This document shows positions 23,533 to 64,000 of a stretch of 64,000 nucleotides of DNA, piece by piece. A model generated the notes under the pieces. That model had not been told where the DNA came from and searched no databases. It worked only from the letters and a program-made list of their open reading frames with translations. The translations under genes and the position numbers were made by a program. The DNA is taken from NCBI GenBank assembly GCA_001804285.1, contig MHFR01000051.1, forward strand, positions 46,926 through 110,925, written 5' to 3'. Within the stretch, counting starts at the first letter, position 1; the number at the start of each line of letters is the position of its first letter. The DNA is from Candidatus Danuiimicrobium aquiferis. Its GTDB lineage: Bacteria; Omnitrophota; Omnitrophia; Omnitrophales; Danuiimicrobiaceae.

Positions 23533-23551
23533 AAAGGAGATTGAGAACTGT

Positions 23552-44740: not shown

Positions 44741-44875
44741 GTCATGCCCGCACGCTTAAAGCGGGCATCCACAGCTTCTGGATTCCCGCTTTCGCGGGAA
44801 TGACAAAGAAACATATGCCCTTTTACAGATAATTGCTTCAAAGTATTAAACAAATACAGTTATTTAGCCTTCTCT
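44741..44875. repeat. Family-A repeat element + conserved ~55-bp extension, between gspF and the secretin
   Basis: GTCATGCCCGCACGCTTAAAGCGGGCATCCACAGCTTCTGGATTCCCGCTTTCGCGGGAATGACAAAG, then ...CCCTTTTACAGATAATTGCTTCAAAGTATTAAACAAATAC. It is near-identical to 50770..50905. Confidence 0.8.
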
Positions 44876-47502: not shown

Positions 47503-47512
47503 TGTGTCGTCC

Positions 47513-48094: not shown

Positions 48095-48136
48095 GATTTC
48101 TGCTTTTTCCTTTTTGCTTAAAACTTATAACCCTCT

Positions 48137-49420: not shown

Positions 49421-50321
49421 GGGCCAAAACCTCCTCGGCTAACTGCTGATACTCAATCGCGCCCAACGAAGTTGGCGCATACGTGATCACCGATTGCTGG
49501 ACCATCGGTGACTCAATTAATTTCACATTGTTGTGAATGACCGTCTTGAACATTTGACTTCCGAAATAATCCCTCAGCGCATGTAACACTTCTTCTGCGA
49601 TTTTGATCCGCTTATCATAAAGGGTCGCAAGAATGCCCAATGTCTCGAGTCCGGGATTAAATTGCTGTTTAACGGATTCGATGGTCCGGAAAAGCTCCTT
49701 CATGCCTTCCAACGCATAATAATGAGTCTGCACGGGAATTAAGACTTTTGATGCATAGCACAATGCATTTAATGTCAATAAATTCAATGTCGGAGGACAA
49801 TCTAATAAAATGAAATCGTAATGTTGCTGAACATTCTGCAATTTAGACCGAAGGGCTTGCTCTCCTGCTTGTATATCGGCCAGCTCAAGTTGCGCGCTTG
49901 CCAAACGGCTCGCAGAAGGCAAAATATGAAGCCCCGGAATCTGACATGGCCGCATCACATCCCCAAAAACCACATTGGGATTGACAAGCAGATCGTAAAC
50001 CGATCGCTGCAACTTATCAACAGATACGCCAAGCCCTAATGTCGCATGTGCTTGCGGATCTAAATCCACCACCAAAACCTTTCCACCCTTTATGGCCAAA
50101 GCAGCGCTAAGATTGACAACCGTTGTGGTTTTCCCGCAACCGCCTTTTTGGTTCATCACAGTTATCGTCACGGGCCGGCTTCCCTCCGGAAGTCCAAAAG
50201 AACTTTGAAGATCTCGCTTTAACTCCCCTTCACGGAGCCACCCAAAAATACTTCTGAATTTGAACCCTGCTTTTTTTGGGGGTTCCTCTGTAGAAATCGT
50301 ACTCTCCAGTAATTCACTCAT
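49401..50321 (-). CDS. ParA/MinD-family P-loop ATPase
   Basis: The deviant Walker A is NQKGGCGKTTTVVNLSAALAIKGGKVLVVDLDPQA. The internal ATG overlaps the merR stop (ATGA). Confidence 0.75.
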   Translation of the reverse strand: MSELLESTISTEEPPKKAGFKFRSIFGWLREGELKRDLQSSFGLPEGSRPVTITVMNQKGGCGKTTTVVNLSAALAIKGGKVLVVDLDPQAHATLGLGVSVDKLQRSVYDLLVNPNVVFGDVMRPCQIPGLHILPSASRLASAQLELADIQAGEQALRSKLQNVQQHYDFILLDCPPTLNLLTLNALCYASKVLIPVQTHYYALEGMKELFRTIESVKQQFNPGLETLGILATLYDKRIKIAEEVLHALRDYFGSQMFKTVIHNNVKLIESPMVQQSVITYAPTSLGAIEYQQLAEEVLALVTKSN

Positions 50322-50605
50322 ATGGAATCCTCCTTGGAACCCTTGACTTTCAATGCAGCCGCGCACAGTGTATAGCCTTCGTTCAAAAGCTGCTTAATCC
50401 GCAGCAATACGTTAATATCTGATTGCGAAAACCTTCTATATTCATACGAACCGAATTGTTCATAAATGGGCTTAACGATTCCAAGCTGTTCCCAATAATA
50501 AAGTTGCCGGCTTGAAACTCCAACGAGCTTTGCTGTCGAAGAAATACTGTAGTACAGCGCACCTGAATGGACTATGTCTAACATCTGTTGCAAATTTTGC
50601 GTCAT
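50318..50605 (-). CDS. MerR-family HTH transcriptional regulator, minimal (95 aa, no effector domain)
   Basis: YSISSTAKLVGVSSRQLYYWEQLGIVKP is a MerR-type HTH. Confidence 0.7.
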   Translation of the reverse strand: MTQNLQQMLDIVHSGALYYSISSTAKLVGVSSRQLYYWEQLGIVKPIYEQFGSYEYRRFSQSDINVLLRIKQLLNEGYTLCAAALKVKGSKEDSI

Positions 50606-50920: not shown

Positions 50921-50967
50921 CCCCTCACCCCTACCCTCTCCCCGTGGGAGAGGGTAGGGGTGAGGGC
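50921..50967 (-). terminator. Perfect 21-bp-arm GC-rich palindrome directly 3' of the gspE stop (candidate intrinsic terminator / family-C repeat)
   Basis: CCCTCACCCCTACCCTCTCCC cgtg GGGAGAGGGTAGGGGTGAGGG. On the minus strand it is followed by ATTTTAGTAATC. Confidence 0.4.
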
Positions 50968-50974: not shown

Positions 50975-52681
50975 CTACGAGTCCTGTGTCACTCTCAGGA
51001 CCTCGTCGATGGTGGAAACGCCCTGCTGGGCTTTGAGGAGGCCTTCTTCTTTTAAGGTTTTCATGCCAAGCGCAATCGCTTTTCTTTTAATGACTTCCGC
51101 GGATTCTTTTTTAACAATAGACGCGCGAATATCATCCGTTGGAACCATGAACTCAAATATGCCCGTTCTTCCCTGATAACCCGTTCCTTTGCATCGGTCA
51201 CAACCGACCTTTTCATAGAACTCGGATTTAACATTCTTTGCTCCGATGTGACCGCTCACTTCCATTAATAATGCTTTTTCAGGGAGATACGGTTTTCTGC
51301 AATGAGTACACAGCTTACGAACAAGCCGCTGCGCGATGACACAGCTTAGAGATGACGAAATCAAAAATGGCTCGACCCCCATATCAAGCAACCTGGTAAT
51401 GGCTGCCGGCGCATCGTTGGTGTGTAAGGTGCTTAGCACCAGATGCCCCGTCAATGCGGCTTGAATGGCAATCGTTGCCGTTTCCAAATCACGGATTTCA
51501 CCGATCATAATCACATCGGGATCCTGTCGCATAATCGAACGCAATCCCTTGGCGAAGGTCAACCCGCTTTTCAGATCAATTTGTGATTGCCGGACTCTTT
51601 CCAACCGGGACTCAACCGGATCTTCTAAGGTAATGATATGCTTCTCGACGGAATTAATTCGGTTTAAACAAGCGTATAACGTGCTTGTTTTTCCGCTACC
51701 GGTCGGACCCGTGACTAAAATAATTCCGTGCGGATATTGAAGGATTTTTTCGAATTGAATCAATGCCTGTTGCTGCATCCCGAGATCCTCAAGCGAAATT
51801 ACAGACTCTGACCGGTCCAAGACACGGATGACCACATTTTCACCATAAATGGTCGGGAAGGTGGAGATACGAAGATTCACGTCTCTATCTTTCATCTGAT
51901 ATTGAATCCGTCCGTCTTGAGGCAGCCGTTTTTCGGCAATATCCATATTGGCCATAATTTTGATGCGGGAAATAATTGACGATTCCATCGATTTCGGAGG
52001 CAGGGGCGAATAATCGTACAAAACCCCGTCAATCCGGTAACGCACGTACAATGCCTTTTCCGCAGGCTCCAAATGAATATCGCTTGCATGATTTTCGAGT
52101 GCTTTTTCAATCAGTAAATTGACAATATTAACAGCGGGCGCATTCTGGGTTGATTCGCCTATGATTTTATCTTTCGATTCTCCGGAAACTGAACCGCCAT
52201 CTCCTCCGATTCCACGGATGGCTTTCCCAAGATGATCTTCCGTCCCAAAGAGTTGATTGATTTTTCGGAGAATGGCTTCTTCATCGGAAAAAACCGGAGA
52301 AATTTCGCACTTGGCATATTGTCCGAGGCGGTCGAGCAGAACGACATCAAGAGGATCAATCATGGCCATAGTCAAAACGTTCTTTTCTTTTTTGATCGGT
52401 AAAACTTTGAAGTAACGGATTAATTTTTCAGGAATCAATTTAATCGTTTCGGGATCAAGAGAAGGAATTTGATCCAAATCAAGGAATGAAATGCGGTAAA
52501 ATTCACTGATCAGCTTAAGAACTTCTACTCGGGAACGACCTTCGAGACACGGCAAAACATCAATAAAACGTTTTCCTGCTTTACCGCGTTCTTCAAAAAG
52601 CTTGTCTTTTTCGGGTTGCGTTAACATATGCCCCGAGGAAAGTTTTTCTTTCAGATACGTTTCTAATTCCTTTTCAATCAC
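50975..52681 (-). CDS. gspE: Type II secretion / type IV pilus assembly ATPase (GspE/PilB family)
   Basis: N-terminal MshEN-like domain, Walker A GPTGSGKTSTLYA, the Asp/His boxes, and the tetracysteine motif CTHCRKP...CDRCKGTGY. Confidence 0.9.
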   Translation of the reverse strand: MIEKELETYLKEKLSSGHMLTQPEKDKLFEERGKAGKRFIDVLPCLEGRSRVEVLKLISEFYRISFLDLDQIPSLDPETIKLIPEKLIRYFKVLPIKKEKNVLTMAMIDPLDVVLLDRLGQYAKCEISPVFSDEEAILRKINQLFGTEDHLGKAIRGIGGDGGSVSGESKDKIIGESTQNAPAVNIVNLLIEKALENHASDIHLEPAEKALYVRYRIDGVLYDYSPLPPKSMESSIISRIKIMANMDIAEKRLPQDGRIQYQMKDRDVNLRISTFPTIYGENVVIRVLDRSESVISLEDLGMQQQALIQFEKILQYPHGIILVTGPTGSGKTSTLYACLNRINSVEKHIITLEDPVESRLERVRQSQIDLKSGLTFAKGLRSIMRQDPDVIMIGEIRDLETATIAIQAALTGHLVLSTLHTNDAPAAITRLLDMGVEPFLISSSLSCVIAQRLVRKLCTHCRKPYLPEKALLMEVSGHIGAKNVKSEFYEKVGCDRCKGTGYQGRTGIFEFMVPTDDIRASIVKKESAEVIKRKAIALGMKTLKEEGLLKAQQGVSTIDEVLRVTQDS

Positions 52682-52835: not shown

Positions 52836-52907
52836 GTCATTCCCGCAAGCTTTAAGCGGGAATCCAGAAAAAATATGGATCCCCGATAGAAACATTCGGG
52901 GATGACA
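52836..52907. repeat. Family-A repeat element, between gspE and the giant gene
   Basis: GTCATTCCCGCAAGCTTTAAGCGGGAATCC ... GGATCCCCGATAGAAACATTCGGGGATGACA. Confidence 0.8.
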
Positions 52908-52971: not shown

Positions 52972-55900
52972 TTATTTCTTTTCCGGCGGTTTCATTTCAG
53001 CCGGCATTTCTTTCCATGTAACAATCCTCAAATTCCGGCTCCCGACGGATCCGAAATTAATAACGCCCCTCTTTTCAGAAACAGTGACGGCCGATTCCGG
53101 CATCACAGCCGCACCCACGTAAATCGTTTCAACGGCCGAAGATTTCATCTCGAAAGTACAAACTCCATTTTTCATCACAAATTCCGTTTGCTTTGGCAGC
53201 GTTAACGACGGAAGCAGCGAATCTCCGGTTTGCCCGACCGGCTTTCCTTCCGGCAAATAATATTGAACTGTCACACGCGTCGAATCGGTTTTAATCACTT
53301 GCCCCTTGGAATCAACCACCTTTATCGTCACCTTCACCGGCTCGTTCAGCGCTCCGTAAGACGATTCAATCACGATAGTCGCTTTAACCACCTCTGCTTT
53401 AGGAGACGATTCTCCCTCGGCATCAGCATCCTCGGCTGTAATTGAAAACTCAGGCAAATCTCCGGGCCCGATGATGTTGAAAACGTGGATCCCCTGATCA
53501 GAACCTGTAAATTCATATTCTTCGGGTAGCCCCAACTCGACTCCGGAAGATAGTCCAATCTTCCCGGCATAGTTCGTGATTGCCTGATTATTGAAATCAA
53601 ACGCACTCACGGTTGCCGTGAATTTCTCTCCGTCATAATAAGTATAAAGATCAGCTTGTGCCCGCGAAGCATCCGCCGGCTTTGAAAGCTCGATCTGAAA
53701 CTTGGAAGCAACAAACGAGACGGATTCGGATGTTCCGAAAAGCAATTCCGGATATTGTGTATCGATTACTTTCAAAGATACTTCCCCCCAGGCGTTAAAC
53801 CGGTTGGTCAATGTAACGGTACCGTTTGATATTGAACTCAAATTGGTTACGGCAAGATTTTCGACTGTTCCGCCGTCTTCAGTCACAACCGTCACATCTG
53901 CTGCGCCGTCATAATTCGAAGTCACTTCCCCGCTTTGATTTACCGCCGTCACCGTCATTTCAAAATCTTTCCCGACGGCGAATGATTTTTCATCTACCAC
54001 CACTTTATATTCATACGGAATAACCGTGAGATTTCCCGAGACGCCCTTAATCACCCCGTCCGCGCTGTCACTTGCCAGCACTTGAATGATTCCGGCATCG
54101 TCATATTGAAGCGAGGCCGTGGCAATCCCGCCTGAAAAGTTGGACACGACGGCCGGCACGAACTGCTTGGTCCCGGCCGTAGGGTTAATATATTGCACTC
54201 CCAAATTGGCCGTTCCGCTGTAAGACACAACCGCTTTATTTCCGCCCGCCCCGGTTTCAACAGCAGAAATCCTTACATCAAACGGCGTGCCGGCTTTTAC
54301 CAGTCCTTGAGTGAGAAGTTCTATCAAATAACTCACTGAACCAAAAGTCACCGTATCCGTGCTGGTATCCGTACTGTCATTCGAATCCGTATAGGTCACC
54401 GTCACCAAATCTCCTCCGCCGCTCACCTCAAGGGTCCCGTTATCTACATGCCCCGTCCGGTTTTGTACGGTCGGAAATGGATTATACGGTACGGAACTCG
54501 TATTGATGAAAATACCGCTATCGACATCGCTTTCAAGCAAGTTAATTTCCTCAGAATCGCCTGTTGCCGGATTGCTCACCGTTACTTTGATCGCATCTTT
54601 AACTAACGGATCCCGATTCCGGTCCGCATCCAGAACTTTCACATAGACATAGTCACCGATCGAATAATTCGACACTTCGATTCCGCTCACATTCACAAAA
54701 TGGATCTCCGATCTGGTTGAAGTCACAGTAATTTCACTTGATAAAACGGGGGCGATTAAATCATTCCCGACCAGTTCCGCTTTCAATTTAATCACGCCGC
54801 CTTCGTTGTAAGACACGTTTGAAAAAGTGGCCACACCGCCGGTGACGGTGATCGTGTTATCTTCATCGAGTGCACTTGATGACAAAGTCCCCGGAGCTAC
54901 GGTTGTTCCGTCCGAAGCCAAAACTGCCGTCAGCTTAATCCGGGAGATTGAATCCGAAGAAATGGCGTTTCCGGCTTCGTCCAAGATCGAAACCACCGGC
55001 TGAGTCGTAAATACACTTCCAGCAAAAATCGATGCCGGGGCCGGTGCGGTCGAAAACTGGATTGCCGAGGCGGTCAGTGAACCGACCACAAGATCTAAAT
55101 CATAATCGGCGCTTCCCGTCGAATCATACGTCCCGTCACTTGCATCCAAAGAGACCGTTTCGGCAGTATAGAGCGTTACATCCGTTTCCGCCTTACAACT
55201 TCCTCCGCCGCACAGAAAATCCAGCAACGTCGAAGAGCCGATATTGACCACAATCCCGTTCTTGTCCCGCGCAAAAGGCGTTTTCCCGTTCGTTGCCGTC
55301 GGGCCGCTAAACGTAATGGATTTTTCCCCGGAATAAGTCGCTAAAATCGGAACGCCGCCATTGTCGTATGGCGTGACGCGGACCGTTATCGTATTTCCGC
55401 TTGCGATCGTTCCCGGACTCGTAGACGTCACCACGAAATGGTCGAGGGATTGATGGAATAGCCAATTCGTATTATTTCCCGAATTGGTACCGCTATAGCA
55501 ATCAATTATTTTTTCCGATTTTTGATCTTTGACGTCCACATCGAAACACGCAAACGTTCCTGTTCCGGACCACAACCGCTGAACGCCTTCCACCGTCGAC
55601 CGGATTTTAATTACATCGGAATCTCCGCCGCCGGAAGCGCCGCCCGCGCCGTTCAGACTCACTGTTCCCGCATTCACGAGCCCGCCTTCACCGATCGTAA
55701 TGGTGGCTTCGTCCGATGAACTGCCGCCCGCATGGGTCCATGCGCCGTCTGTTTCAATCACCACTTTATAAGCATTTAACTCAACATTTTCCTCCTGAAC
55801 CAGTTCGCCGTCTAAAATGGTGAGTGTCCCATTCACCACCAGATTTTTTGTGGACACATTCACATCGTCCGCATCGCCAACGCCTGACTTTTCGATCACT

Positions 55901-58900
55901 AAATTGTAGAATGAATTCCCGGTTGATATCAGCTCGGCTGCCGCTGTTCCCGTTAATGTCACTGTTTCCGTTGTATGCGCAAAGGTCCCCGTCGCAAAAT
56001 TCCAGTTACCGGACACCGTAATATCTTTTCCGTTCGGATCAAATGTTCCCGTTGATGAATTGGTAAAATCTCCGTTCACCACCAATGCATCCTGCAGCTC
56101 AACCGTTCCCGTTCCGCTTTCCGTAAAATTGTAAAGTTCAGCGCCGTTTAGTGTCATGGCAACCGAACCGCTGTCGTTCACTTCAATCGTCGAATTTCCG
56201 GGGGTGAATGTTGCATCCGGATCGATTTCAAGTTTTCCGGCAACGGTGATGATGGTATTTTCAGATCCGGCATCGGATGCGTCCAACGTTCCCGCAACCG
56301 TCAAGCCGTCAGAACCGGTAATTTCGATATCGTAACCATTCGTGACTAACGTATCCGTCTCATTAATCGTAACCGATTCTGTCAGAATGTCAGATCCGAG
56401 CTCTACCGTTTCAGGAGAAGCTCCGATCACTAATTTCCCGAGGTTCTGTTTCGTGGTGTTGCTATCCGTAATCGTCACGTTGCCTTGGACCCATGTTTTC
56501 CCGTCACCTGTCGAAGGCGTAAATGAAGCGCCGTTCGCAATCGTCATATCCCCCTTCACAATCAGATTCTGATCGTCATCCGCCACAAACGTACCGCTCG
56601 TCACCGCAAAGTCACCTTCCACCGTCATTTCGCTTGAATCGTCAAATTGATATGTTCCGCCGCCGCCAAACACGACGTCTTTAAACACATTTCCTTTCGG
56701 CGCAATCTTGTGCGTTCCTGTTCCGTTAAAATGGACAGGCGCATTGTTGTGTGTGAATGTAGATCCGTTAGCGAGAGAAAAATCTCCCGTCACGTCCATC
56801 GGTTTCCCTTCAACGCCCACCAACGTCCCGCGCATGTCCACATCCGGAAATTCGGTTTCTTCACTGGCCTTGAAAACCGTTCCCGGCCAAATAAAAAGCT
56901 TTAATCCCTCCCCAAAGAACAATTTCTTTTGGCCATTGGTTGTCCTGGGCGTAAATCCCATATATTGCCCAAAGGTGGGATTCGTTCCCGTCGCGCAACC
57001 GCCCGCCGGATTATTGGGATTCGGCACGCACGCCTCGCCGCCATTAAATCCTTGATGCATCCTGTCAAAATCGATGATCGGAATGACAGAACTGTATTCA
57101 TTGCGGATAATCACGTGATTCAGGTAAATATCCATTCCGCTCTTGCTTCCTGCGTCCGTCACAAACGTTAAAACACCTTTTTTGAAATTAGACGGCGGCA
57201 CATAATTTCCGTTAAACGGATCGCAACTTGTGCATGTAGGTTCAACAAAAACGGTCACCAAATCGCCGGCAAGAACAAACATATGCATTTCATATTGGCC
57301 GTTTTGATTCGTGACAATATGATTTCCCAAACCGAACCCATAAGCAAACGCGCCTTTGTCCGCCAAATTCACCCGCGCACCGGCAAGCGGCGTCACGCCC
57401 GCATCGGAATAAACCGTTCCCTGAAGTACAATCTCTACCCCGAATTTCCAATTCATATTCCGTCCGCCGTCAATCGCATGCTGTCCGTACGTAATCACCG
57501 GCGCCGGATTGACATTTAATGAATCCGTAATGCTGATCCAACTAACCACTCTCGTCCCGCGCGGGTCGATTTTCCATTGGGTTTCAGGCTCACTGCTCAC
57601 CAGCGAAATATTTCCCGTTTCCGTGCCCTTCAGATCCGTCGTGTGTAAAACAATCTGCAGTTTACCGGCTTCAAACGTGAGCGTATCCGCCACCGCCACA
57701 TTTTTCTTTAAATCATAGAAAGTCGTCTCGCCCAATATCGATTGGCCGGTTCCGTTTAGCGTTACCATGTTCTGCCGCGGTAAAAATACATCCCGATTAA
57801 CCCAGTTGCCCGCTACATTTATTGGGAAGTTTCCGTCTAATTGGGCATCCAACGTGCCGCCGGTAATGGTTAAATCGCCGCTGACGGTTAGTGGCCCTTG
57901 CAGAATAAAAATAGCGGCCCCGCCCCCGTCATCAAACGTTAAATCATGAAATGCGGAAATTCCGGGCGCAAGTTGAAGCTGACCGGCCTGCGCATTTAAC
58001 AAGACTTTGCCGGCCTGCGCATTAAACGCTCCCGCATTCAGCCACTTTCCGCCCACATTGATCTGAAAACTGTTCTCGCTCGCATCCAATGTTCCGGCCG
58101 TAATATTCAAATCACCGGCCACAACAAGAGGCGCCCCAAGTTGAAACGTGTCTTGATTTGTTTCGGATGGATCATTGACCGTTAAATGATGGAACGTCGT
58201 TGCAATATCCGTAAGAATGTGCGTCGTTGCCGCCGAATCTCCGTCACCGACAAAAGTCACGATGGAACCTTCATGGTTTGTTAAGAGGACTGAAAGGCTT
58301 TCACTGCCTTGAAGTTGAATATTGCCGGAATTATTAATGGCTGTGGCAGACGAAATGTTGTGCCCGTTCAGATCGAGCGTCCCGGCCGTCAGAGTCAGTT
58401 CTCCGTCAACGTCCAAATGATTCGTATCAAGCTGTACCGTTCCGGTGGCTTTATTAATGACAACCGTGTTGAAATCCTGACTGTCTTCCGTCCCGCCACT
58501 AATGATTTTTGTGGTATTTGGGCCGGCAATCGGATTGACGAAATTAACCACTCCCGTGCCGGACACAAAACTTCCCTGGTTCGTCCAATCGCCGGCAACA
58601 AAAATATTATAATTAAGTCCGTCAGCCGTAAAGGATGCGGCAGGTTTAATCGTAAAACTTCCATCCACACGAAGCGTGCCGCCCGCCGGTGCAAAGGTTC
58701 CGCTGATTTCCAATCCGCCTGTTCCGACAATTACATTTCCGTTCGGCGAAAATGTCGAACCGGCATTGATCAGGAGTTTAACACCATTTTCGACCGTCAG
58801 GATTTTCGGGATTCCGTTGTCCGCGTTGTAAAGCATATTCACGGCATCCTGGTCGTTGTCGTAATCAATCAGATTCGGAATCGCAACCGGATTGGCCCCG

Positions 58901-61900
58901 TTATCGGAACGCAGAATCACGGCATTTTGAATAAGATGTAAATTTGTTAGCGGAGAAATTCCGTCGGTGATTGTTACCGTATTCGCTTTTGCCGAACCGG
59001 TCGAATAGACGGTCAGCCGGTCACCGGCATTGGCTTTTACACCAAGCACCGTGAAACTTCCGTCCGTCGCAGAGCAGCTTGCCGTTGTTACGCTTCCGCC
59101 GTTTACCCGAAGCGAAATATTTTCCGCATTTCCGTCACAAATGCCACCGTTCCCCGACGTTGCGGGCGTTGTTCCATCTTGCAAATAAAAAATGCCTCGT
59201 AGCGTCACCCACCCCCAATTCAAATTGTTGCCACTATCGATCGCGTTGGTATGCTGGACGAATAATCCACTGCGAGCATCACTATCCTGCGCATCCACAT
59301 AATCAATCGCAAACGCTCCCATCGCCGCAAGCAGCCACTGGGCTCCCGGAACATTCGACCGCAAATTAATCCGGTCGTCCGTATCCAAACCATCCAATGT
59401 CAGCGTACCCAAAATCGTTTGCGTGGCAGCATTGTCAAACGTCAATGTCACATCCGTCGAATCATTCGTCGGTTCAATCTTCATTAAATGATTGAATGTA
59501 TTTGTTCCGCTGATCGCTTGATTCGTTCCGTCGAAACGAACGGTTCCGGTATTGTGATCGAAGACAGATGTGCCCGTATGTATCCAGTCGCCGGAAACGG
59601 TAAACCGGTCTCCGTTCGGCGCTGTCATCGTTCCGGTATCGGAAAGCGTAAAGTTACCGTTCACATCCGTATTTCCGGCACCGCCCGTATAAGAGCCGCT
59701 TGAAATTGTAAGGCCGCCGTTAAAGTTTTGTTGTGCGACACCCGCGGTACAAGTTCCGCCGTTAACAGTTGCAAGACCCGTTACGGTTGTAATTTGACCG
59801 TTTGCGTTATACGTTGCCGAAGTGACATTCAGTGTACCGGCAATCGTGAGTGCTCCCCCCGCAATAAATGTCCGCTTTGTCGCATTGATATCATTAATCA
59901 CCAAATTGTAATAATCCGTCGCGCCGAAATCTTTAATCGTCAGATTCCCGGCTGTGTTATCGCCCGCATATGAATAAGTACCGCTATCAATATCATTCGC
60001 CGCCCAGAACAAAGTTTCGTTTCCTGTTAATTTAATGGTTCCTGCAATATTTCCACGGGTCGGCGCACCGGCGCCGGAGCCATCAATCACATTCTTTCCA
60101 TTTAAATCAAAAATACCGTCCGTAACCGTCAGCGTACCGTTCACACCCAAATGATTCGTAATCAATTGCAGTGTCCCGCCTGGCTTGTTCACTGTGAAAT
60201 GCTGGAAGTCGAAAACGTCCGTTGTTCCGCCGGTATTAATAGTAGCCGTGTTAGCTCCGGCAGACGGGTTGTCAAAAAATACGGTACTCTTCGTCAGCGC
60301 CGGATCCGCATTATAAACGCCTGCGCCCGAAGTGAAGGTTCCCGCATTCGTCCAGTTCCCGCCGACATTGATGTTGAATGTACTACCGCCGGTAGACAAT
60401 GTAGAAGCCGCATTAATCGTCACATTTCCTTCAACATCTAAATTGCCACCCAATGTAATCGAGGCTACACCAACGATAATATTTCCAAATGACATCGTTG
60501 CTGCCGCACCTTGTCCATCCAGTGTCGATGACACATAAAATCCAACCGTCGAATTGTTTGTAATCGCATCTACCGTTCCGGCAGTATATGTCCAGTTTTG
60601 TCCGGAAGAAATGGTGCAGTTTGCGGAAGCACAAAGCGTAAGCGTTCCAGCAGTTTTATTGACCTCGATTTTCGGCAAACGGCCCTGACCTGCCGCGCCG
60701 CTGCTGGTTAACGTCTGATTACCGTCTGAACTTGCCCCTTCACCCGCACCTGCGACAATGTTGATCGTCGCCGTCCCACCACCGCCCGCAAACGTATTTG
60801 TCACGGTAATATTCCCTTTGGCATTTATTTCAATGCCGTCCGAATCATTCGTGTTAATGGTCACGCCATTATTTCCGCCAATCGTTAGCGTCCCCGGGAC
60901 CGTTAATACCGTTCCGGAGGCAAATGTAAACGTCCTTGCCGAGGTAAATCCGTTAAACTGAACATCATTCAGCGTTTGGCTCCCTGTAATTGTAGAAGTG
61001 CCCGATAATGCCTGGAACGCAATGGTTGTATTGGCAACGCTGAACGTTCCGCCAACACGTGTAAATGTCCAGCTATTGTTGGAAACGATGTTTCCGGTCA
61101 GCGTCAAATCCCCGGCTGTTTTATTGATCCAAACCTGCGGCAGTCCGCCTTGCGTAATCGTTATATTGCTGGTCAATGTTTGATCTCCCGTGCCGTCAAT
61201 AATCAGCTTTGCCGTCCCACCACTGGCGGCATTGGCGGCCGTATTGGTGTAATTGATAGCAGCTCCGCGCGCATAAAGATTCCCGGTGTTCAGCGTCAGT
61301 GCACCGGCACCGGATAGAGTCAATGTCCCATTCGCGATGACATTCGCACCGAGCAATGTATACGTACGCGCTGCAGCAGCGGTAAATTCCAAATTATTAA
61401 ATGTCAGGTTCCCCGTAATGGTGCACGCAACACTAAAAATCTGGTTTGTCGGCGGATTGGTTAACGTTCCGCCAACCGCATCAAAATTTCCATTCATCGT
61501 AATCGTTCCGGAGCCGTCGCCGCCATTCCATGTACCATTCAAATCAATACCGCCCGTTCCCGTCGTCACATTTCCACCCGGCACAAAGATGTCACCCGCT
61601 TGAATCCAAAGTTCGGTACCCGCCACCGCACTGAGAGTCAACGTATTCGGAGAACCAGAAACCGCATCAAACAACATATTCGTCGTATCATTCCCGTTCG
61701 GGCTCGCGCGGTCATAATCAACTAAATCCGGAATCGCAATTGCCGCCGCCGCACTGTCATTCCGGACAATCACATGCGCGCCCATAATCGCTATGTCTGT
61801 AATATTTGTCGTGCCATCCGTAATAGCAACCGTATTTCCCTTTGTTGCACCGGTCAAATAAAATGTCAGTGTCTGGCCCGCAACCGCGGAAACATTATTA

Positions 61901-64000
61901 AAGTTAAAAGCCCCGACCGCATCCGTTGTCGTGGTGGCAAGCCCCGTTCCGTCAATCCGCATTGCCACCGCGGCGGAGGCAATGGGCGTGACCTCGTCAG
62001 ACGTATAAACCGTTCCCGTGATATTGAATCCCGCAAAGCCCCAGTTAACGTTATTGCCGCCATTCGACGCATTGGAATGTGTCATCACCGTTGCATTAAT
62101 ATTGTTTGAATTGGAAACAGTCACGTAGGAAATATTGCGCTCGCCCTGAGGATCGATCCGCCAGCGGCCGGTGCCGCTTGTCCAGCGGTTCAATACAATG
62201 TTATTGTCTTGCACCCCGTTTATTGTCCACGTTCCGGCAATAATATTCGCGTGCGTAGTGCTCGGCTCGAAAGTGATCGTCTTTCCCGCAGTCGTACATT
62301 TAAAATGATTAAATGTCGTAAATCCCGTCAGCACACTGGCACTTGCGCTGTCAAAGGTTACCGTCCCGGTTGAGGGCGTAAACGTACCGCCGCTGTATGT
62401 CCAATCTTCGGCAACTGTAAACCGCTCGCCGTCCGGAGCAATTAATGTCCCGCTGGTAATCGATACATCCGTTGCATCGATGGTGCCGCCTGTCGCATCA
62501 AGTGTTCCACCGGCAATCGACAATGTCCCGTTCGATGTCAATGTCGCTGTGTTGGTGCTGATATCCAATGTCCCATTCGTCAGGGTCAACGTATTGTTCA
62601 CCGTCAAATTTTGTCCGGCCATCACCTGCCACACCCCCCCCGATCCGCTAAGAGTAAGGTTATTAAATGCCGACGCTCCGGGACTGACGGATTTAGTTGA
62701 AGTGGCCGAAAACACAACGCTCCCTGTATACGAATTGAGCGTAGCAGAGTTGCTCCATCCACCCGCAACCGTAAGGGTTTTAGCATTTACTGAAAAACTG
62801 CCTCCTGACATCGCAAAATCTCCGGAAACAGTTAAGTTCGCCCCAAGAGAGATGGTCCCCCCGAACCCCTCATCTGCGGTAAGGTCCTTAATCGTTGTGG
62901 CAGTAGAATTCATGCTGACAGAGCCTGCCCCTGAGTTCCCATCAAAATATGCTGATTCAGTGCTCGTATCAGGCACGCCGGCTCCGCCCGGGCCGCCTGA
63001 GGTCGATGCCCAATTGTATGAATTCGACCAATTTCCGCCGCTTGGGCTGCCGACCCAATAATAGGTGCCGGAGAAATCCCAATCCGTATTGGTTCCCGCG
63101 TCCGTACTGTTAACCGCCGGCCTTGTAATCTCAGAAATATTATTCGAATCCTTCAGATCAACATATTGAACGTTTGTGTGTGTCGGGTCAACGTTCCATT
63201 GATCGTCGGCACTATTGTCATCGTCGTCTTCACTGCTCCGTACCGATAATAGCGCACCGGCACTTCCGGTCAGGGTCAACGTACCCATAACCGTTTGAGT
63301 CGATCCCTTTTGAAACGTCAGCGTCTTTGCAGACGTAACTGTTTTTGTTAAGTTATAAAATGTATTACTTCCAGAAATGGATTGATCTCCTCCAAGCAAT
63401 AATACGGCACCAGTCGATACCGTAAACGCCCCCCCAGACCTTGACCAATTTCCAGACAATTCGATATTCCTATTATTTTGTGCCAACGACCCACCGTTCA
63501 TTGTAAAGTTTCCCGAAACCGTCATACCAACGCTCAATGATATCTGTCCGGGGTAATCGGCAGTAATCGTAACATTTCTCGCCGTAAGCCAACAATTAGT
63601 CTGCATTGAGCTTGAGCCTGAATTCCCATCGAATACCACATCTGTTCCCGACGTGGGCGCTCCTGCCCCGCCCGGGCCTCCAGAACTGGTTGCCCACGAA
63701 GAGCTATTACACCAACTCGCAGTACCACCCACCCAATAATAAGTCGGAGTATCCGAAATGCTCCAGTTCGTATTCGTTCCCGAATCGGTACTTTGATAAA
63801 CGGTGATTGCGGTTGCATTGGAGTTATTTGAATCCTTCACATCTACATAGGAAATAGTGCGCGTCCCCGAAGGATTAATCGTCCATTGATCGGCAACATC
63901 ATTATCGCCGTCATTTTCACTGCTTCGCAGAGACAATAACGCCCCGGCAGCACCTCGCAAAGTCAATGTGCCAGATATGGTTTGGGTGGAACTCTTCTGA
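52972..64000 (-). CDS. Giant secreted/surface repeat protein (>3,664 aa within the window; the 5' end lies beyond the window). It is a beta-helical passenger-type repeat protein with carboxypeptidase-regulatory-like and Ig-like domains
   Basis: A single ORF of 10,995 nt ends at 52972. Translation upstream of the printed M (a TTG) continues in-frame to the window edge. The composition is dominated by G/T/N/S/A. Repeats resemble autotransporter-associated beta-strand repeats: (I/V)NKTAGTLTL..GN and VNKPGGTLQLITNHLGVNGTLTVTDGIFDLNGKNVI. A higher-order module recurs at least five times, ending ...GTLTLTGSAGALLSVRSSEDDDDNSADDQWNVDPTHTNVQYVDLKDSNN ... NW.F. Each is followed by a GTVYxxDxxTPxAxAxV beta-sandwich. 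The C-terminal ~900 aa carry Ig-like (Big-type) repeats. Confidence 0.85.
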   Translation of the reverse strand, partial: QKSSTQTISGTLTLRGAAGALLSLRSSENDGDNDVADQWTINPSGTRTISYVDVKDSNNSNATAITVYQSTDSGTNTNWSISDTPTYYWVGGTASWCNSSSWATSSGGPGGAGAPTSGTDVVFDGNSGSSSMQTNCWLTARNVTITADYPGQISLSVGMTVSGNFTMNGGSLAQNNRNIELSGNWSRSGGAFTVSTGAVLLLGGDQSISGSNTFYNLTKTVTSAKTLTFQKGSTQTVMGTLTLTGSAGALLSVRSSEDDDDNSADDQWNVDPTHTNVQYVDLKDSNNISEITRPAVNSTDAGTNTDWDFSGTYYWVGSPSGGNWSNSYNWASTSGGPGGAGVPDTSTESAYFDGNSGAGSVSMNSTATTIKDLTADEGFGGTISLGANLTVSGDFAMSGGSFSVNAKTLTVAGGWSNSATLNSYTGSVVFSATSTKSVSPGASAFNNLTLSGSGGVWQVMAGQNLTVNNTLTLTNGTLDISTNTATLTSNGTLSIAGGTLDATGGTIDATDVSITSGTLIAPDGERFTVAEDWTYSGGTFTPSTGTVTFDSASASVLTGFTTFNHFKCTTAGKTITFEPSTTHANIIAGTWTINGVQDNNIVLNRWTSGTGRWRIDPQGERNISYVTVSNSNNINATVMTHSNASNGGNNVNWGFAGFNITGTVYTSDEVTPIASAAVAMRIDGTGLATTTTDAVGAFNFNNVSAVAGQTLTFYLTGATKGNTVAITDGTTNITDIAIMGAHVIVRNDSAAAAIAIPDLVDYDRASPNGNDTTNMLFDAVSGSPNTLTLSAVAGTELWIQAGDIFVPGGNVTTGTGGIDLNGTWNGGDGSGTITMNGNFDAVGGTLTNPPTNQIFSVACTITGNLTFNNLEFTAAAARTYTLLGANVIANGTLTLSGAGALTLNTGNLYARGAAINYTNTAANAASGGTAKLIIDGTGDQTLTSNITITQGGLPQVWINKTAGDLTLTGNIVSNNSWTFTRVGGTFSVANTTIAFQALSGTSTITGSQTLNDVQFNGFTSARTFTFASGTVLTVPGTLTIGGNNGVTINTNDSDGIEINAKGNITVTNTFAGGGGTATINIVAGAGEGASSDGNQTLTSSGAAGQGRLPKIEVNKTAGTLTLCASANCTISSGQNWTYTAGTVDAITNNSTVGFYVSSTLDGQGAAATMSFGNIIVGVASITLGGNLDVEGNVTINAASTLSTGGSTFNINVGGNWTNAGTFTSGAGVYNADPALTKSTVFFDNPSAGANTATINTGGTTDVFDFQHFTVNKPGGTLQLITNHLGVNGTLTVTDGIFDLNGKNVIDGSGAGAPTRGNIAGTIKLTGNETLFWAANDIDSGTYSYAGDNTAGNLTIKDFGATDYYNLVINDINATKRTFIAGGALTIAGTLNVTSATYNANGQITTVTGLATVNGGTCTAGVAQQNFNGGLTISSGSYTGGAGNTDVNGNFTLSDTGTMTAPNGDRFTVSGDWIHTGTSVFDHNTGTVRFDGTNQAISGTNTFNHLMKIEPTNDSTDVTLTFDNAATQTILGTLTLDGLDTDDRINLRSNVPGAQWLLAAMGAFAIDYVDAQDSDARSGLFVQHTNAIDSGNNLNWGWVTLRGIFYLQDGTTPATSGNGGICDGNAENISLRVNGGSVTTASCSATDGSFTVLGVKANAGDRLTVYSTGSAKANTVTITDGISPLTNLHLIQNAVILRSDNGANPVAIPNLIDYDNDQDAVNMLYNADNGIPKILTVENGVKLLINAGSTFSPNGNVIVGTGGLEISGTFAPAGGTLRVDGSFTIKPAASFTADGLNYNIFVAGDWTNQGSFVSGTGVVNFVNPIAGPNTTKIISGGTEDSQDFNTVVINKATGTVQLDTNHLDVDGELTLTAGTLDLNGHNISSATAINNSGNIQLQGSESLSVLLTNHEGSIVTFVGDGDSAATTHILTDIATTFHHLTVNDPSETNQDTFQLGAPLVVAGDLNITAGTLDASENSFQINVGGKWLNAGAFNAQAGKVLLNAQAGQLQLAPGISAFHDLTFDDGGGAAIFILQGPLTVSGDLTITGGTLDAQLDGNFPINVAGNWVNRDVFLPRQNMVTLNGTGQSILGETTFYDLKKNVAVADTLTFEAGKLQIVLHTTDLKGTETGNISLVSSEPETQWKIDPRGTRVVSWISITDSLNVNPAPVITYGQHAIDGGRNMNWKFGVEIVLQGTVYSDAGVTPLAGARVNLADKGAFAYGFGLGNHIVTNQNGQYEMHMFVLAGDLVTVFVEPTCTSCDPFNGNYVPPSNFKKGVLTFVTDAGSKSGMDIYLNHVIIRNEYSSVIPIIDFDRMHQGFNGGEACVPNPNNPAGGCATGTNPTFGQYMGFTPRTTNGQKKLFFGEGLKLFIWPGTVFKASEETEFPDVDMRGTLVGVEGKPMDVTGDFSLANGSTFTHNNAPVHFNGTGTHKIAPKGNVFKDVVFGGGGTYQFDDSSEMTVEGDFAVTSGTFVADDDQNLIVKGDMTIANGASFTPSTGDGKTWVQGNVTITDSNTTKQNLGKLVIGASPETVELGSDILTESVTINETDTLVTNGYDIEITGSDGLTVAGTLDASDAGSENTIITVAGKLEIDPDATFTPGNSTIEVNDSGSVAMTLNGAELYNFTESGTGTVELQDALVVNGDFTNSSTGTFDPNGKDITVSGNWNFATGTFAHTTETVTLTGTAAAELISTGNSFYNLVIEKSGVGDADDVNVSTKNLVVNGTLTILDGELVQEENVELNAYKVVIETDGAWTHAGGSSSDEATITIGEGGLVNAGTVSLNGAGGASGGGDSDVIKIRSTVEGVQRLWSGTGTFACFDVDVKDQKSEKIIDCYSGTNSGNNTNWLFHQSLDHFVVTSTSPGTIASGNTITVRVTPYDNGGVPILATYSGEKSITFSGPTATNGKTPFARDKNGIVVNIGSSTLLDFLCGGGSCKAETDVTLYTAETVSLDASDGTYDSTGSADYDLDLVVGSLTASAIQFSTAPAPASIFAGSVFTTQPVVSILDEAGNAISSDSISRIKLTAVLASDGTTVAPGTLSSSALDEDNTITVTGGVATFSNVSYNEGGVIKLKAELVGNDLIAPVLSSEITVTSTRSEIHFVNVSGIEVSNYSIGDYVYVKVLDADRNRDPLVKDAIKVTVSNPATGDSEEINLLESDVDSGIFINTSSVPYNPFPTVQNRTGHVDNGTLEVSGGGDLVTVTYTDSNDSTDTSTDTVTFGSVSYLIELLTQGLVKAGTPFDVRISAVETGAGGNKAVVSYSGTANLGVQYINPTAGTKQFVPAVVSNFSGGIATASLQYDDAGIIQVLASDSADGVIKGVSGNLTVIPYEYKVVVDEKSFAVGKDFEMTVTAVNQSGEVTSNYDGAADVTVVTEDGGTVENLAVTNLSSISNGTVTLTNRFNAWGEVSLKVIDTQYPELLFGTSESVSFVASKFQIELSKPADASRAQADLYTYYDGEKFTATVSAFDFNNQAITNYAGKIGLSSGVELGLPEEYEFTGSDQGIHVFNIIGPGDLPEFSITAEDADAEGESSPKAEVVKATIVIESSYGALNEPVKVTIKVVDSKGQVIKTDSTRVTVQYYLPEGKPVGQTGDSLLPSLTLPKQTEFVMKNGVCTFEMKSSAVETIYVGAAVMPESAVTVSEKRGVINFGSVGSRNLRIVTWKEMPAEMKPPEKK

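What the first reader, a model, noticed from the sequence alone, without database searches (positions are those of the whole stretch)
52972..64000. Giant (>3,664 aa, truncated) beta-helical repeat protein encoded directly upstream of, and co-oriented with, a T2SS/T4P-type secretion cluster
One uninterrupted ORF occupies the last 11 kb of the window and continues beyond it. It is made of autotransporter-passenger-like beta-strand repeats (KTAGTLTL..G.N / GTLTLTG). Five or more ~600-700-aa super-repeats each end in a conserved cap (...GALLS.RSSE.D.DN.AD.QW.IDP.G.R.ISYV.V.DSNN...NW.F) followed by a GTVY..D..TP.A.A.V beta-sandwich. Ig-like domains sit at the C-terminus. No TPS, autotransporter barrel, RHS/YD or recognisable catalytic motif was seen. 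Its stop lies ~290 bp upstream of gspE on the same strand, so the simplest inference is a giant surface adhesin or substrate exported by the adjacent machinery. As I recall, giant genes next to T2SS loci have been noted in some uncultivated predatory or episymbiotic lineages; I could not verify that here. The repeat and domain grammar here is not one I can map to a named family.
Basis: partly seen in the sequence, partly recalled or inferred. Interest (0 to 1): 0.85.

Follow-up and report, generated by a model that had tools for sequence, protein, structure and literature searches.

The report
Giant pilus-linked beta-helix adhesin (Omnitrophota)
The last 11 kb of the window are the tail end of a real 9,218-residue surface protein of a groundwater Omnitrophota bacterium. 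Its conserved tail marks it as an oversized member of a protein family that always sits inside type IV pilus operons, so it is most likely a very long adhesin carried or exported by that pilus machine.

Summary
Window 52972-64000 (-) is one open frame of 3,675 codons that runs off the window. On an independent 137.5-kb assembly the gene is called at 9,218 aa. It is built of diverged (25-50% identical) right-handed beta-helix modules. Each ends in a conserved ~150-aa terminal unit, and there are six in the window. Three of these are followed by a CarboxypepD-like sandwich. An Ig-like C-terminus closes the protein.

The new point is the last ~450 aa. They form four Ig-like domains plus a conserved, unstructured C-terminal strand motif, and they match Pfam DUF6701 (47 bits, cut-off 27). 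This module defines a family of mostly 600-1,700-aa proteins with signal peptides, variable lectin or beta-helix heads and the same tail. In 9 of 10 distinct related loci the family gene lies in or beside the same PilMNO-secretin-PilC-ATPase cluster. In seven it is followed by homologues of two minor pilins also present in the window (one locus with a 3.9-kb gap).

My best reading is a hyper-expanded MshQ/PilY1-like adhesin docked to the filament tip. A pushed-out T2SS-like cargo is not excluded. The link between giant genes and T2SS/T4P loci in Omnitrophota is already published. The N-terminal 5,543 aa were not retrievable.

The parts
52972..64000 (-). C-terminal 3,675 codons (plus stop) of a gene called at 9,218 aa. 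The protein part is acidic (pI 4.3), rich in T/G/S/N and has no TM-like segment.
63757..63996 (-). beta-helix terminal ('cap') unit 1, aa 2-81, cut by the window edge
   Evidence: cap profile hit, i-E 4.9e-29
63070..63525 (-). cap unit 2, aa 159-310. It is followed by a new helix start, YYWVG..W..W.
   Evidence: i-E 4.9e-48
62032..62484 (-). cap unit 3, aa 506-656
   Evidence: i-E 1.2e-44; AF2 pLDDT above 90
61765..62022 (-). CarboxypepD_reg-like beta-sandwich after cap 3, aa ~660-745
   Evidence: Pfam PF13715, E 1.8e-4, 21.9 bits, below its 32.2-bit cut-off; strands 348-435 of the AF2 model
59209..59676 (-). cap unit 4, aa 1442-1597, followed by a GIFY.. sandwich
   Evidence: i-E 1.2e-49
57442..57894 (-). 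cap unit 5, aa 2036-2186, followed by a GTVY.. sandwich
   Evidence: i-E 7.1e-47
55453..55710 (-). cap unit 6, diverged, aa 2764-2849. It is the last beta-helix element before the Ig region.
   Evidence: i-E 3.5e-9
54334..55452 (-). Ig-like linker region, aa 2850-3222. It is conserved with P0001 only.
52975..54333 (-). Conserved C-terminal module, aa 3223-3675. It has four Ig-like sandwiches and is DUF6701-like.
   Evidence: Pfam PF20419 47.2 bits against cut-off 27; AF2 pLDDT 87.9; 566 library proteins at E<=1e-30 (this count also includes generic multi-repeat Ig proteins), and 66 of the 154 sequences scanned carry the full module
53005..53079 (-). Conserved C-terminal strand motif (G.v.FG..g.R..rI..WkE), followed by a short charged tail. 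It is the candidate docking strand.
   Evidence: Conserved across the family. Module residues 430-445 and 447-453 have pLDDT<50 in the monomer model.
52839..52903 (-). Two hairpins (dG -12.2 and -12.7 kcal/mol) in the 290-bp gap. The first is followed by a T-run and looks like a terminator.
50975..52681 (-). GspE/PilB-family extension ATPase (Pfam MshEN + T2SSE)
49401..50605 (-). MerR-like 95-aa protein and ParA/MinD-like ATPase
46654..49420 (-). PilM, PilN and PilO homologues
44860..46620 (-). Secretin (STN + Secretin_N + Secretin) with a C-terminal TPR
43502..44725 (-). PilC/GspF platform protein
42946..43323 (-). Small 125-aa protein with a hydrophobic, signal-peptide-like N-terminus. Its homologues sit just upstream of the family gene in relatives.
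42507..42956 (-). Major (pseudo)pilin candidate with GFTLIE and a borderline GspG-like match
42158..42535 (-). 125-aa protein with a hydrophobic N-terminal segment and no Glu5. My reading from the sequence alone is that it is PilX/GspK-like.
41770..42171 (-). Minor pilin p133 (GFTYIE). Its homologue immediately follows the family gene in L008, L014, L016, L017 and L019.
40532..41770 (-). Large minor pilin p412 (GLTLIE). Its homologue follows p133 in the same loci.

Best explanation
The ORF is the C-terminal 40% of a 9,218-residue extracellular adhesin of a groundwater Omnitrophota bacterium. It is a component of the type IV filament machine encoded next to it.

**Shown**
- The body is a chain of right-handed beta-helix modules with interspersed beta-sandwiches.
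- The last ~450 aa are a conserved DUF6701-like module of four Ig-like domains. It ends in a conserved motif (..FG....G..I..W(R/K)E + charged tail) that is unstructured in the monomer model.
- Proteins with this same tail normally have about 600-1,700 aa and Sec signal peptides. They carry interchangeable heads (DUF2341, LamG, H-lectin, PA14, F5/8C, beta-helix).
- They are encoded inside PilMNO-secretin-PilC-pilin-ATPase operons, directly before homologues of the window's minor pilins p133 and p412.

**Inferred mechanism**
1. The protein is exported by Sec and folds in the periplasm.
2. Its C-terminal strand is made last, so it reports completion of the 9,218-aa chain. The strand docks by beta-strand addition onto the minor-pilin initiation complex (p133/p412/p125b).
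3. Pilin polymerisation, driven by the GspE/PilB-type ATPase, pushes the narrow rod lengthwise through the secretin.
4. The filament therefore carries at its tip a fibre of roughly 150-200 nm. This is my own rough estimate from ~4.8 A per ~22-residue rung. That is about the size of the cell itself. The cell would use it to grapple surfaces or host/prey cells.

The giant size arose through old duplication of beta-helix modules.
For: **Intact gene**
- The gene is real and intact.

**Fold**
- The beta-helix fold resembles adhesin passengers, TpsA proteins and the pilus-locus-linked tapirins.
- The C-terminal model has pLDDT 87.9. Its residues 430-445 and 447-453 fall below 50 although W440 is conserved in at least 90% of sequences.

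**Family**
- DUF6701 is matched at 40.5-47.2 bits against a cut-off of 27. It is detected in 14 of 25 isolated family modules, best E 4.9e-28.
- Precomputed newer-Pfam labels DUF6701_3rd and DUF6701_2nd are on record for P0001 and P0251.
- Among the 154 sequences scanned (151 library or word-index hits plus P0001, P0003 and P0004), 66 carry the full module. It lies at or within ~10 residues of the C-terminus in all but three. Most of those starting with Met have a signal-peptide-like N-terminus by eye, and heads vary.

**Synteny**
- L014, L017 and L019/L020 have the complete operon with the family gene between the ATPase and two N_methyl genes. Stop and start overlap in L014.
- L008 and L016 have the same core.
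- In L013 the two pilin homologues lie 3.9 kb downstream of the family gene.
- L007/L010 and L011 have the family gene directly upstream of the ATPase, as in the window. In L015 it lies downstream of the ATPase.

**Other links**
- An independent pilin link exists. P0028 fuses a prepilin N_methyl N-terminus to the same beta-helix/cap module.
- From the literature, MshQ is a putative MSHA-pilus adhesin (PMC7096442). It is proposed to be a PilC/PilY1 functional homologue that docks by C-terminal beta-strand addition. This licensing is argued to ensure that the large adhesin is complete before mounting (PMC13533445).
Against:
- The DUF6701 match covers only profile positions 98-356 of 577. At E<=0.001 on full-length proteins only 1 of 35 family members hit it, so the relation is distant.
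- That V. cholerae MshQ itself belongs to DUF6701 is my recollection and was not tested here.
- In the window the giant gene is about 10 kb from p133/p412, not adjacent. Terminator-like hairpins separate it from the ATPase gene.
- The major pilin is borderline GspG-like and no PilT was seen in the 64 kb. The filament may therefore be a short pseudopilus that expels the protein rather than carrying it.
- The N-terminal 5,543 aa are unseen. Some proteins sharing the beta-helix module carry a TPS domain (P0025, P0032, P0063).
- The largest family member seen in the library has 3,073 aa. Whether a 9,218-aa chain can be mounted and pass a secretin is untested.
Confidence: 0.5

Rival explanations
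1. It is a T2SS-like cargo. The machine makes a short pseudopilus that pushes the folded giant protein through the secretin. The protein is then released or sticks to the cell surface, and it is not carried on a filament tip. This is essentially the first reader's reading.
For: - The major pilin has a borderline T2SSG match of 21.1 bits against a cut-off of 21.
- The ATPase scores slightly better with the GspE model than with PilB, though below both cut-offs.
- No retraction ATPase lies in the window.
- The Omnitrophota literature calls these loci T2SS-like (10.1101/2023.11.21.568195, section 11).
- The conserved C-terminal module could equally be a recognition signal for the pseudopilus tip.
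Against: - PilM/N/O are present in place of GspL/M/C.
- The family gene sits between the ATPase and minor pilins, with overlapping stop and start in L014. That placement is typical of a structural subunit rather than a substrate.
- The DUF6701 relation points to the MshQ type, which is a pilus protein.
Confidence: 0.27
2. It is an independent surface adhesin or exoprotein exported by another route, for example two-partner secretion from an unseen N-terminal TPS domain. Its position next to the pilus genes would then have no functional meaning.
For: - The beta-helix fold matches TpsA proteins EtpA and HMW1.
- Three proteins sharing the module carry PF05860. Two of them are annotated as filamentous haemagglutinin N-terminal domain proteins of Omnitrophota/Omnitrophica, and the third has no source annotation.
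- The N-terminus was not seen.
- Terminator-like hairpins follow the gene.
- One relative, L012, stands alone.
Against: - Pilus genes lie beside the family gene in 9 of 10 distinct related loci from different MAGs and metagenomes.
- PF05860 was not among the 25 most frequent families listed for the 35 full-length members scanned.
- Family members with intact N-termini show plain Sec signal peptides.
- No Pfam hit is on record for the 9,218-aa product. This is weak evidence.
- No TpsB/ShlB-type gene was found among the window genes scanned.
Confidence: 0.1
3. It is primarily an enzyme, a polysaccharide lyase or hydrolase array on beta-helix scaffolds that attacks host or prey cell walls, rather than an adhesin.
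For: - The Omnitrophota giant-gene literature favours cell-wall degradation.
Against: - Sequence identity to those enzymes is 5-15%.
- No catalytic Pfam or NCBIfam family is matched.
- The best matches are non-enzymatic passengers.
- The heads of smaller family members are lectin-like, not catalytic.
- This reading would not exclude pilus mounting.
Confidence: 0.08
4. It is an artefact: a mis-assembled chimera of repeats, or a decaying pseudogene.
For: The protein is repetitive and comes from a metagenome.
Against: - The window holds 3,675 stop-free codons and the full gene is called at 9,218.
- Repeats are only 25-50% identical, and no direct DNA repeat family longer than 40 nt was found.
- A separately deposited assembly is identical but for 1 base in 21.7 kb, and 17 contigs carry the neighbouring gene.
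- The C-terminal module is under clear conservation.
Confidence: 0.02

Closest known systems
MshQ of the Vibrio cholerae MSHA pilus (and DUF6701 proteins generally)
   Same: - Both are large proteins encoded in a type IV pilus gene cluster that also holds the GspI/J/K-like minor pilins, directly beside them in most relatives.
- The window protein has a C-terminal region matching Pfam DUF6701 above threshold.
- The heads are variable. The literature reports ice-binding DUF3494 heads on DUF6701 tails (PMC11645318).
- MshQ is proposed to be a tip adhesin that docks by a C-terminal beta-strand (PMC13533445, PMC7096442).
   Different: - MshQ has ~1,200 aa, against 9,218 here.
- Only the middle of the DUF6701 profile (98-356 of 577) is matched.
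- In relatives the gene lies before the two minor pilins, not after them. In the window it lies upstream of the ATPase.
- The host is Omnitrophota, not Gammaproteobacteria.
- I did not verify here that MshQ itself is a DUF6701 member.
PilC/PilY1 tip adhesins of type IVa pili
   Same: The proposed role is the same: a large non-pilin protein that licenses and caps the minor-pilin initiation complex through its extreme C-terminus. Metagenomic family members reach 3,500 aa (PMC13533445).
   Different: - There is no PilY1 beta-propeller. Pfam gives no PilC/PilY1 hit, and the C-terminus is Ig-like.
- It is 2.6 times longer than the longest PilY1 cited.
Tapirins of Caldicellulosiruptor
   Different: - Tapirins are ~600-aa single-domain proteins of Firmicutes.
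- They have no DUF6701-like tail, and no sequence similarity was detected.
Autotransporter and two-partner-secretion passengers (Pet, pertactin, Vag8, VacA p55, EtpA, HMW1)
   Different: - No C-terminal beta-barrel translocator is present.
- No TPS domain occurs in the part seen.
- The conserved terminal unit of each helix has no Pfam or NCBIfam model.
Omnitrophota giant proteins next to T2SS/T4P-like loci (West-Roberts et al. 2023; Nielsen & Lui 2026)
   Same: It comes from the same phylum, is a very long gene and is adjacent to gspD/E/F-like and pilin genes. Adhesion to host or prey is proposed.
   Different: - The proteins described there have more than 10,000-30,000 aa. All the full-length giants of West-Roberts et al. 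have numerous TM regions, and most have SecA DEAD domains. [quoted passage not shown] - This one has 9,218 aa, below their 10-kaa catalogue cut-off. The 3,675 aa seen have no TM segment.
- Neither paper mentions MSHA, and DUF6701 appears in neither. In the passages I read or term-searched, neither describes a pilus-docking tail.

Membership tests
DUF6701 (Pfam PF20419) / MshQ-type pilus-associated large proteins | Match to PF20419 above the gathering score | tested here: met
   40.5 bits on the last 849 aa and 47.2 bits on the last 453 aa, against a cut-off of 27. At E<=1, 14 of 25 family modules also match, best E 4.9e-28.
DUF6701 (Pfam PF20419) / MshQ-type pilus-associated large proteins | Coverage of the whole 577-position profile | tested here: not met
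   Only profile positions 98-356 are aligned. On full-length proteins at E<=0.001 only 1 of 35 family members matches. This is a distant relative, not a typical member.
DUF6701 (Pfam PF20419) / MshQ-type pilus-associated large proteins | Encoded within a type IV pilus operon beside GspI/J/K-like minor pilins | tested here: met
   Relatives L008, L014, L016, L017 and L019/L020 have the order family gene - p133-like - p412-like, with the ATPase and other pilus genes upstream wherever the contig reaches. L007/L010 and L011 lie directly upstream of the ATPase and L015 downstream of it. In the window the gene is in the same cluster but ~10 kb from the minor pilins.
DUF6701 (Pfam PF20419) / MshQ-type pilus-associated large proteins | [quoted passage not shown] | not testable with these tools
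   No multimer modelling is available. The data are consistent only: the motif is conserved (W440 in at least 90% of sequences), it lies within 0-15 aa of the C-terminus, and its pLDDT is below 50 in the monomer model.
DUF6701 (Pfam PF20419) / MshQ-type pilus-associated large proteins | V. cholerae MshQ itself is a member of PF20419 | not tested
   This rests on my recollection of InterPro/NCBI annotation. No MshQ sequence was reachable: afdb50 was unavailable, the plasmid tblastn was empty and no NCBIfam model hit.
PilC/PilY1 tip adhesins | C-terminal PilY1/PilC beta-propeller domain | tested here: not met
   There is no such Pfam hit. The C-terminus folds as four Ig-like sandwiches.
Type Va autotransporters | C-terminal 12-strand beta-barrel translocator | tested here: not met
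   There is no autotransporter Pfam or NCBIfam hit. The C-terminus is Ig-like and soluble. Only the passenger-like beta-helix fold is shared.
Two-partner secretion TpsA (FHA-like) | N-terminal TPS domain (PF05860) and a TpsB partner | not testable with these tools
   The N-terminal 5,543 aa lie outside the window and could not be fetched. No Pfam hit is on record for the full product. No TpsB was found among the window genes scanned.
Classical type II secretion system (for the neighbouring cluster) | GspC, GspL and GspM together with GspD/E/F/G | tested here: not met
   PilM_2, PilN and PilO are found instead. The secretin, F and E proteins are generic. The pilin is only borderline T2SSG. The ATPase is below the cut-offs of both the GspE and the PilB NCBIfam models.
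Omnitrophota 'giant proteins' as defined by West-Roberts et al. 2023 | More than 30,000 aa, numerous TM regions, usually a divergent SecA DEAD domain | tested here: not met
   The protein has 9,218 aa. The 3,675 aa seen have no TM-like segment (maximum KD 1.59) and no SecA hit. The N-terminal part was not seen.

The most novel reading that the evidence does not exclude
Ultra-small Omnitrophota mount a ~9,200-residue beta-helical fibre, about as long as the cell, on the tip of a type IV filament. They do so through a DUF6701-like docking module whose C-terminal strand licenses pilus initiation only once the whole chain is made. The family's interchangeable heads would then be a modular 'grappling' system for host or prey capture. 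The same docking logic might explain why very long genes in this phylum sit beside T2SS/T4P-like loci.
Probability: 0.3. Interest if true: 0.8.

Novelty: new variant of a known kind. Interest (0 to 1): 0.5.

Why it matters
Two preprints report that very long Omnitrophota genes lie next to T2SS/T4P-like loci. In the parts I read, neither gives a molecular reason for the link.

This locus offers one that can be tested. A conserved ~450-aa tail is shared with ordinary-sized, operon-embedded proteins and is distantly related to DUF6701, the family I recall holding the pilus protein MshQ. It may couple the protein to the minor-pilin tip complex.

If correct, three things follow:
- The largest known pilus-tip adhesin grows from ~3,500 to ~9,200 residues.
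- The result provides a sequence handle, the tail profile, for finding pilus-presented adhesins in uncultivated PVC, Omnitrophota and CPR genomes.
- It gives a concrete complex to model or reconstitute.

If wrong, the locus is still a clean, independently assembled example of an already described association.

Tried and rejected
- **Whole-fragment homologue search.** It timed out. Shorter queries worked, but the word-indexed database returned nothing longer than ~1,300 aa, so giant homologues and the protein itself could not be retrieved.
- **N-terminus.**
  - Neighbour look-ups reach only 10 kb.
  - An exact 28-mer scan of JGI metagenomes found nothing.
  - The species genome is apparently not in genome contigs, since one search gave no self-hit.
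- **tblastn of the tail against plasmids.** No match.
- **PDB sequence searches** with the tail profile and with p412. Nothing meaningful.
- **NCBIfam on the fragment.** No family.
- **Considered and rejected:**
  - Autotransporter: no barrel.
  - PilY1 homologue: no propeller.
  - PEP-CTERM/sortase/T9SS-type C-terminal sorting signal: no TM helix or CTD after the motif.
  - Canonical MshE-type c-di-GMP motif in the ATPase: by eye there is no RLGxx motif in the N-terminus.
  - Collapsed-repeat artefact.
  - The 1,064-aa protein of the second pilin cluster as a paralogue: it has neither the tail nor the cap.
Full report

Window 52972-64000 on the minus strand is one frame of 3,675 codons without a stop. 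It ends at TAA 52972-52974 and is open at the window edge. The next gene on the same strand starts 290 bp downstream.

An exact look-up of that neighbour found 17 contigs. On ENA contig ERZ27254836:k141_1714022 (137.5 kb) the upstream gene is called at 9,218 aa. That assembly differs from the window at 1 of 21,707 bases. Cluster members of three window proteins carry GenBank names of Omnitrophica bacterium RIFCSP... MAGs from groundwater, so the organism is an Omnitrophota bacterium.

Internal repeats are only 25-50% identical at protein level. No direct DNA repeat family longer than 40 nt was found. A collapsed-repeat assembly or a pseudogene is therefore very unlikely. GC is 49-50% in the gene against 41-46% elsewhere. 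I attribute this to the Gly/Thr/Ala-rich composition but did not test it.

**2. Anatomy of the part seen**

Pfam on the whole fragment gives only a weak CarbopepD_reg_2 hit, and NCBIfam gives nothing.

A homologue search with aa 1-740 returned 81 proteins. Where the source names an organism, they come from Omnitrophota/Omnitrophica, Kerfeldbacteria, Peribacteria, Bdellovibrionales, Thermodesulfobacteriota, Dehalococcoidales and Flavobacteriales. They share mainly a ~150-aa unit at 40-55% identity.

A profile of that unit finds six copies in the fragment. The unit's consensus is ..TFYNLTK....TLTF.AG.TQTI.GTLTL.G..G.LLSLRSS..GTQW.I.PQG.R.ISYVDVKDSNN......S.DSGNNTNW.F. The copies delimit modules of 229, 346, 941, 589 and 663 aa.

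- After caps 1 and 2 a new helix starts at once (YYWVG..W..W..GG.GGAG.P...D).
- After caps 3, 4 and 5 comes a GT(V/I)Y.. beta-sandwich.
- After cap 6 comes the Ig-like region.

**3. The informative part is the tail**

The last 849 aa hit Pfam DUF6701 at 40.5 bits, and the last 453 aa alone reach 47.2 bits against a cut-off of 27. The match covers profile positions 98-356 of 577.

Homologues of this region include P0001 (43% identity over 98% of the query) and P0003/P0004. P0003 and P0004 are 914-1,227-aa proteins with a signal peptide, one beta-helix module with cap, and the same tail.

An exhaustive profile search of 1.84 billion representatives found 5,557 proteins at E<=1e-3 and 566 at E<=1e-30. 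Of the 154 sequences scanned (151 from the library and word-index searches, plus P0001, P0003 and P0004), 66 carry the complete module as one stretch. It ends at or within about 10 residues of the C-terminus in all but three of them. Their lengths range from 396 to 3,073 aa, mostly 600-1,700. Most of those that begin with a methionine have a signal-peptide-like N-terminus by eye.

The heads of these proteins vary. Among 35 full-length members, DUF2341 occurs in 13. Laminin_G_3, H_lectin, Ig_Rha78A_N and fn3 occur in 3 each, and PA14, F5/8C and GLEYA in 1 each. Ten of the 66 carry the beta-helix cap. DUF6701 is detected in 14 of 25 isolated tails at E<=1, best E 4.9e-28. On full-length proteins at E<=0.001 it is detected in only 1 of 35. 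A newer Pfam labels P0001 'DUF6701_3rd' and P0251 'DUF6701_2nd'. The tail is therefore a divergent DUF6701.

The family ends in a conserved motif, G.(V/I).FG....G..I..W(R/K)E, followed by a short charged tail. In the model this segment has pLDDT below 50, although W440 is conserved in at least 90% of sequences. That is what one expects of a strand which folds only on a partner.

**4. Context and synteny**

Downstream in the window, all on the minus strand, lie:

- a GspE/PilB-family ATPase;
- a MerR-like 95-aa protein;
- a ParA-like ATPase;
- PilM, PilN and PilO;
- a secretin with STN and TPR;
- PilC/GspF;
- a small protein with a signal-peptide-like N-terminus;
- a GFTLIE pilin with a borderline T2SSG match;
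- a PilX-like protein;
- a 133-aa minor pilin;
- a 412-aa minor pilin.

The cluster is a type IV filament machine of T4aP/MSH-like composition, not a classical T2SS. The ATPase falls below the cut-offs of both the GspE and the PilB models. By eye it shows no RLGxx c-di-GMP motif.

I compared relatives of the tail in species genomes, JGI metagenomes and ENA/Logan contigs with the window's proteins.

- L014 (PVC-group MAG), L017 and L019/L020 carry this order: (pilM-pilN-pilO)-secretin-pilC-pilin-(PilX-like)-ATPase-(small)-[family protein]-p133-like-p412-like. In L014 stop and start overlap.
- L008 and L016 show the same core.
- L013 has the two pilins 3.9 kb downstream of the family gene.
- In L007/L010 and L011 the family gene lies directly upstream of the ATPase, as in the window. 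In L015 it lies downstream of the ATPase, as in L017.
- Only L012 stands alone. It has three DUF2341 heads.

That makes 9 of 10 distinct loci linked to the machine. Separately, P0028 fuses a prepilin N-terminus to the same beta-helix/cap module, although not in a pilus operon.

**5. Mechanism**

The family behaves like a structural partner of the minor pilins.

In V. cholerae, MshQ (~1,200 aa) is encoded next to the GspI/J/K-like minor pilins MshD/O/P. It is regarded as the putative MSHA adhesin, and its loss lowers surface piliation (PMC7096442).

A 2026 study shows experimentally, for PilC and PilY1, that a 6-10-aa extreme C-terminal strand licenses the PilIJK initiation complex by beta-strand addition. 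The same study predicts this for MshQ. It argues that the arrangement ensures the large adhesin is finished before it is mounted (PMC13533445).

I infer the same logic here. The protein undergoes Sec export and periplasmic folding. Its C-terminal strand then docks on p412, p133 or the PilX-like protein. Pilin polymerisation pushes the narrow rod out through the secretin.

At about 4.8 A per ~22-residue rung, plus Ig and sandwich domains, the full protein could span very roughly 150-200 nm. This is my own estimate, not a computed result.

The steps shown are the fold, the conserved tail, the family, the synteny and the DUF6701 relation. The steps inferred are docking, tip location, passage through the secretin and the adhesive role.

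**6. Rivals**

- **T2SS-like piston.** A piston that expels the protein fits the GspG-like pilin and the absence of PilT in the window. I give it about a quarter.
- **Unrelated export route such as TPS.** This cannot be excluded while the N-terminal 5,543 aa are unseen, and three module-sharing proteins have a TPS domain. The synteny and the plain signal peptides of family members argue against it.
- **Enzymatic role.** There is no sequence support for it.
- **Artefact.** This is essentially excluded.

**7. Comparison and novelty**

That long Omnitrophota genes lie beside T2SS/T4P-like loci is published (10.1101/2023.11.21.568195, section 11; 10.64898/2026.06.07.730766, sections 8 and 10). Those proteins exceed 10-30 kaa. 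All the full-length giants of West-Roberts et al. have numerous TM regions. Of the 916 long proteins in the Nielsen & Lui catalogue, 94% have TM helices or a signal peptide. Tad/RcpC-type genes are among those described in their flanks.

DUF6701 is mentioned in only one paper of the searchable library, an ice-binding-protein study. Nielsen & Lui do not mention MSHA. In the sections I read or term-searched, neither giant-gene preprint describes a docking tail. MshQ-type adhesins are known at ~1,200 aa and PilY1 relatives at up to 3,500 aa.

I therefore rate this as a new variant of a known kind. It is a hyper-expanded member of an operon-embedded, DUF6701-like adhesin family in Omnitrophota/PVC bacteria. 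It is of moderate interest and offers a directly testable mechanism.

Noticed in passing
window 18265-27289 (+): A second pilin cluster lies here. It holds rpoN (sigma-54), then five tandem N_methyl pilin-like genes (four of them with SGFTLAELL/SGFSLTELL N-termini), a 233-aa pilin-like ORF, a 1,064-aa protein with no Pfam hit, and one more pilin. The 1,064-aa protein has a hydrophobic N-terminal segment and a Cys-rich C-terminal half. It has neither the DUF6701-like tail nor the cap unit, and could be another tip or accessory protein.
   Followed up: partly
window 50922-50966 (-): A perfect 20-bp-stem GC-rich hairpin (CCCTCACCCCTACCCTCTCC..GGAGAGGGTAGGGGTGAGGG) lies just downstream of the ATPase gene, before the MerR-like gene. 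It could be a terminator or a REP-like element.
   Followed up: no
window 52839-52903 (-): Two ~8-bp-stem hairpins (dG about -12 kcal/mol each) lie in the 290-bp gap after the giant gene. The first is followed by a T-run. The giant gene may be its own transcription unit.
   Followed up: partly
window 54000-64000 versus the rest: GC content is 49-50% in the giant gene against 41-46% elsewhere in the window. This is probably an amino-acid composition effect (T, G, S, A and N make up 50% of residues) rather than foreign origin.
   Followed up: no
window 49401-50605 (-): A MerR-like 95-aa gene and a ParA/MinD-like ATPase lie between the extension ATPase and pilM. The pair is also present on ENA contig L002 from another sample, but that contig is base-identical to the window, so this is not independent evidence of conservation. 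Their role in the pilus operon is unknown.
   Followed up: no
window 13190-14602 (-) and 10879-13206 (-): A GGDEF diguanylate cyclase lies next to an LptD-like gene. c-di-GMP signalling is thus encoded in the window, although the pilus ATPase lacks an obvious MshEN-type c-di-GMP motif.
   Followed up: no
L018 8001-10199 (P0028, JGI 3300020213): A 732-aa protein fuses a prepilin N_methyl N-terminus and a CarboxypepD_reg domain to the same beta-helix terminal unit, which ends exactly at its C-terminus. It looks like a pilin-borne version of the module and is not in a pilus operon.
   Followed up: partly
L010 ~9330-9500 (GCA_964373885.1, CAYJWM010000024.1): The closest homologue, P0001 (43% identity, also directly upstream of the ATPase), is interrupted by a run of N, a scaffold gap. 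Its true length is unknown and it may also be giant.
   Followed up: no
L019 7472-12196: In this relative a 194-aa and a 665-aa gene with no Pfam hit precede the 731-aa family gene, with overlapping ends. This may be a split head or an additional subunit.
   Followed up: no
beta-helix terminal unit (e.g. window 62032-62484): The ~150-aa terminal unit gave 81 hits in a limited search, across several phyla including candidate phyla such as Kerfeldbacteria and Peribacteria. It occurs next to DUF11, PG_binding_1, LamG, DUF2341 and TPS domains, yet it has no Pfam or NCBIfam model. It is a candidate for a new domain family.
   Followed up: partly
tool behaviour: The word-indexed protein database returned no protein longer than ~1,300 aa and did not return the query's own protein. 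The absence of giant homologues from those searches is therefore uninformative.
   Followed up: no
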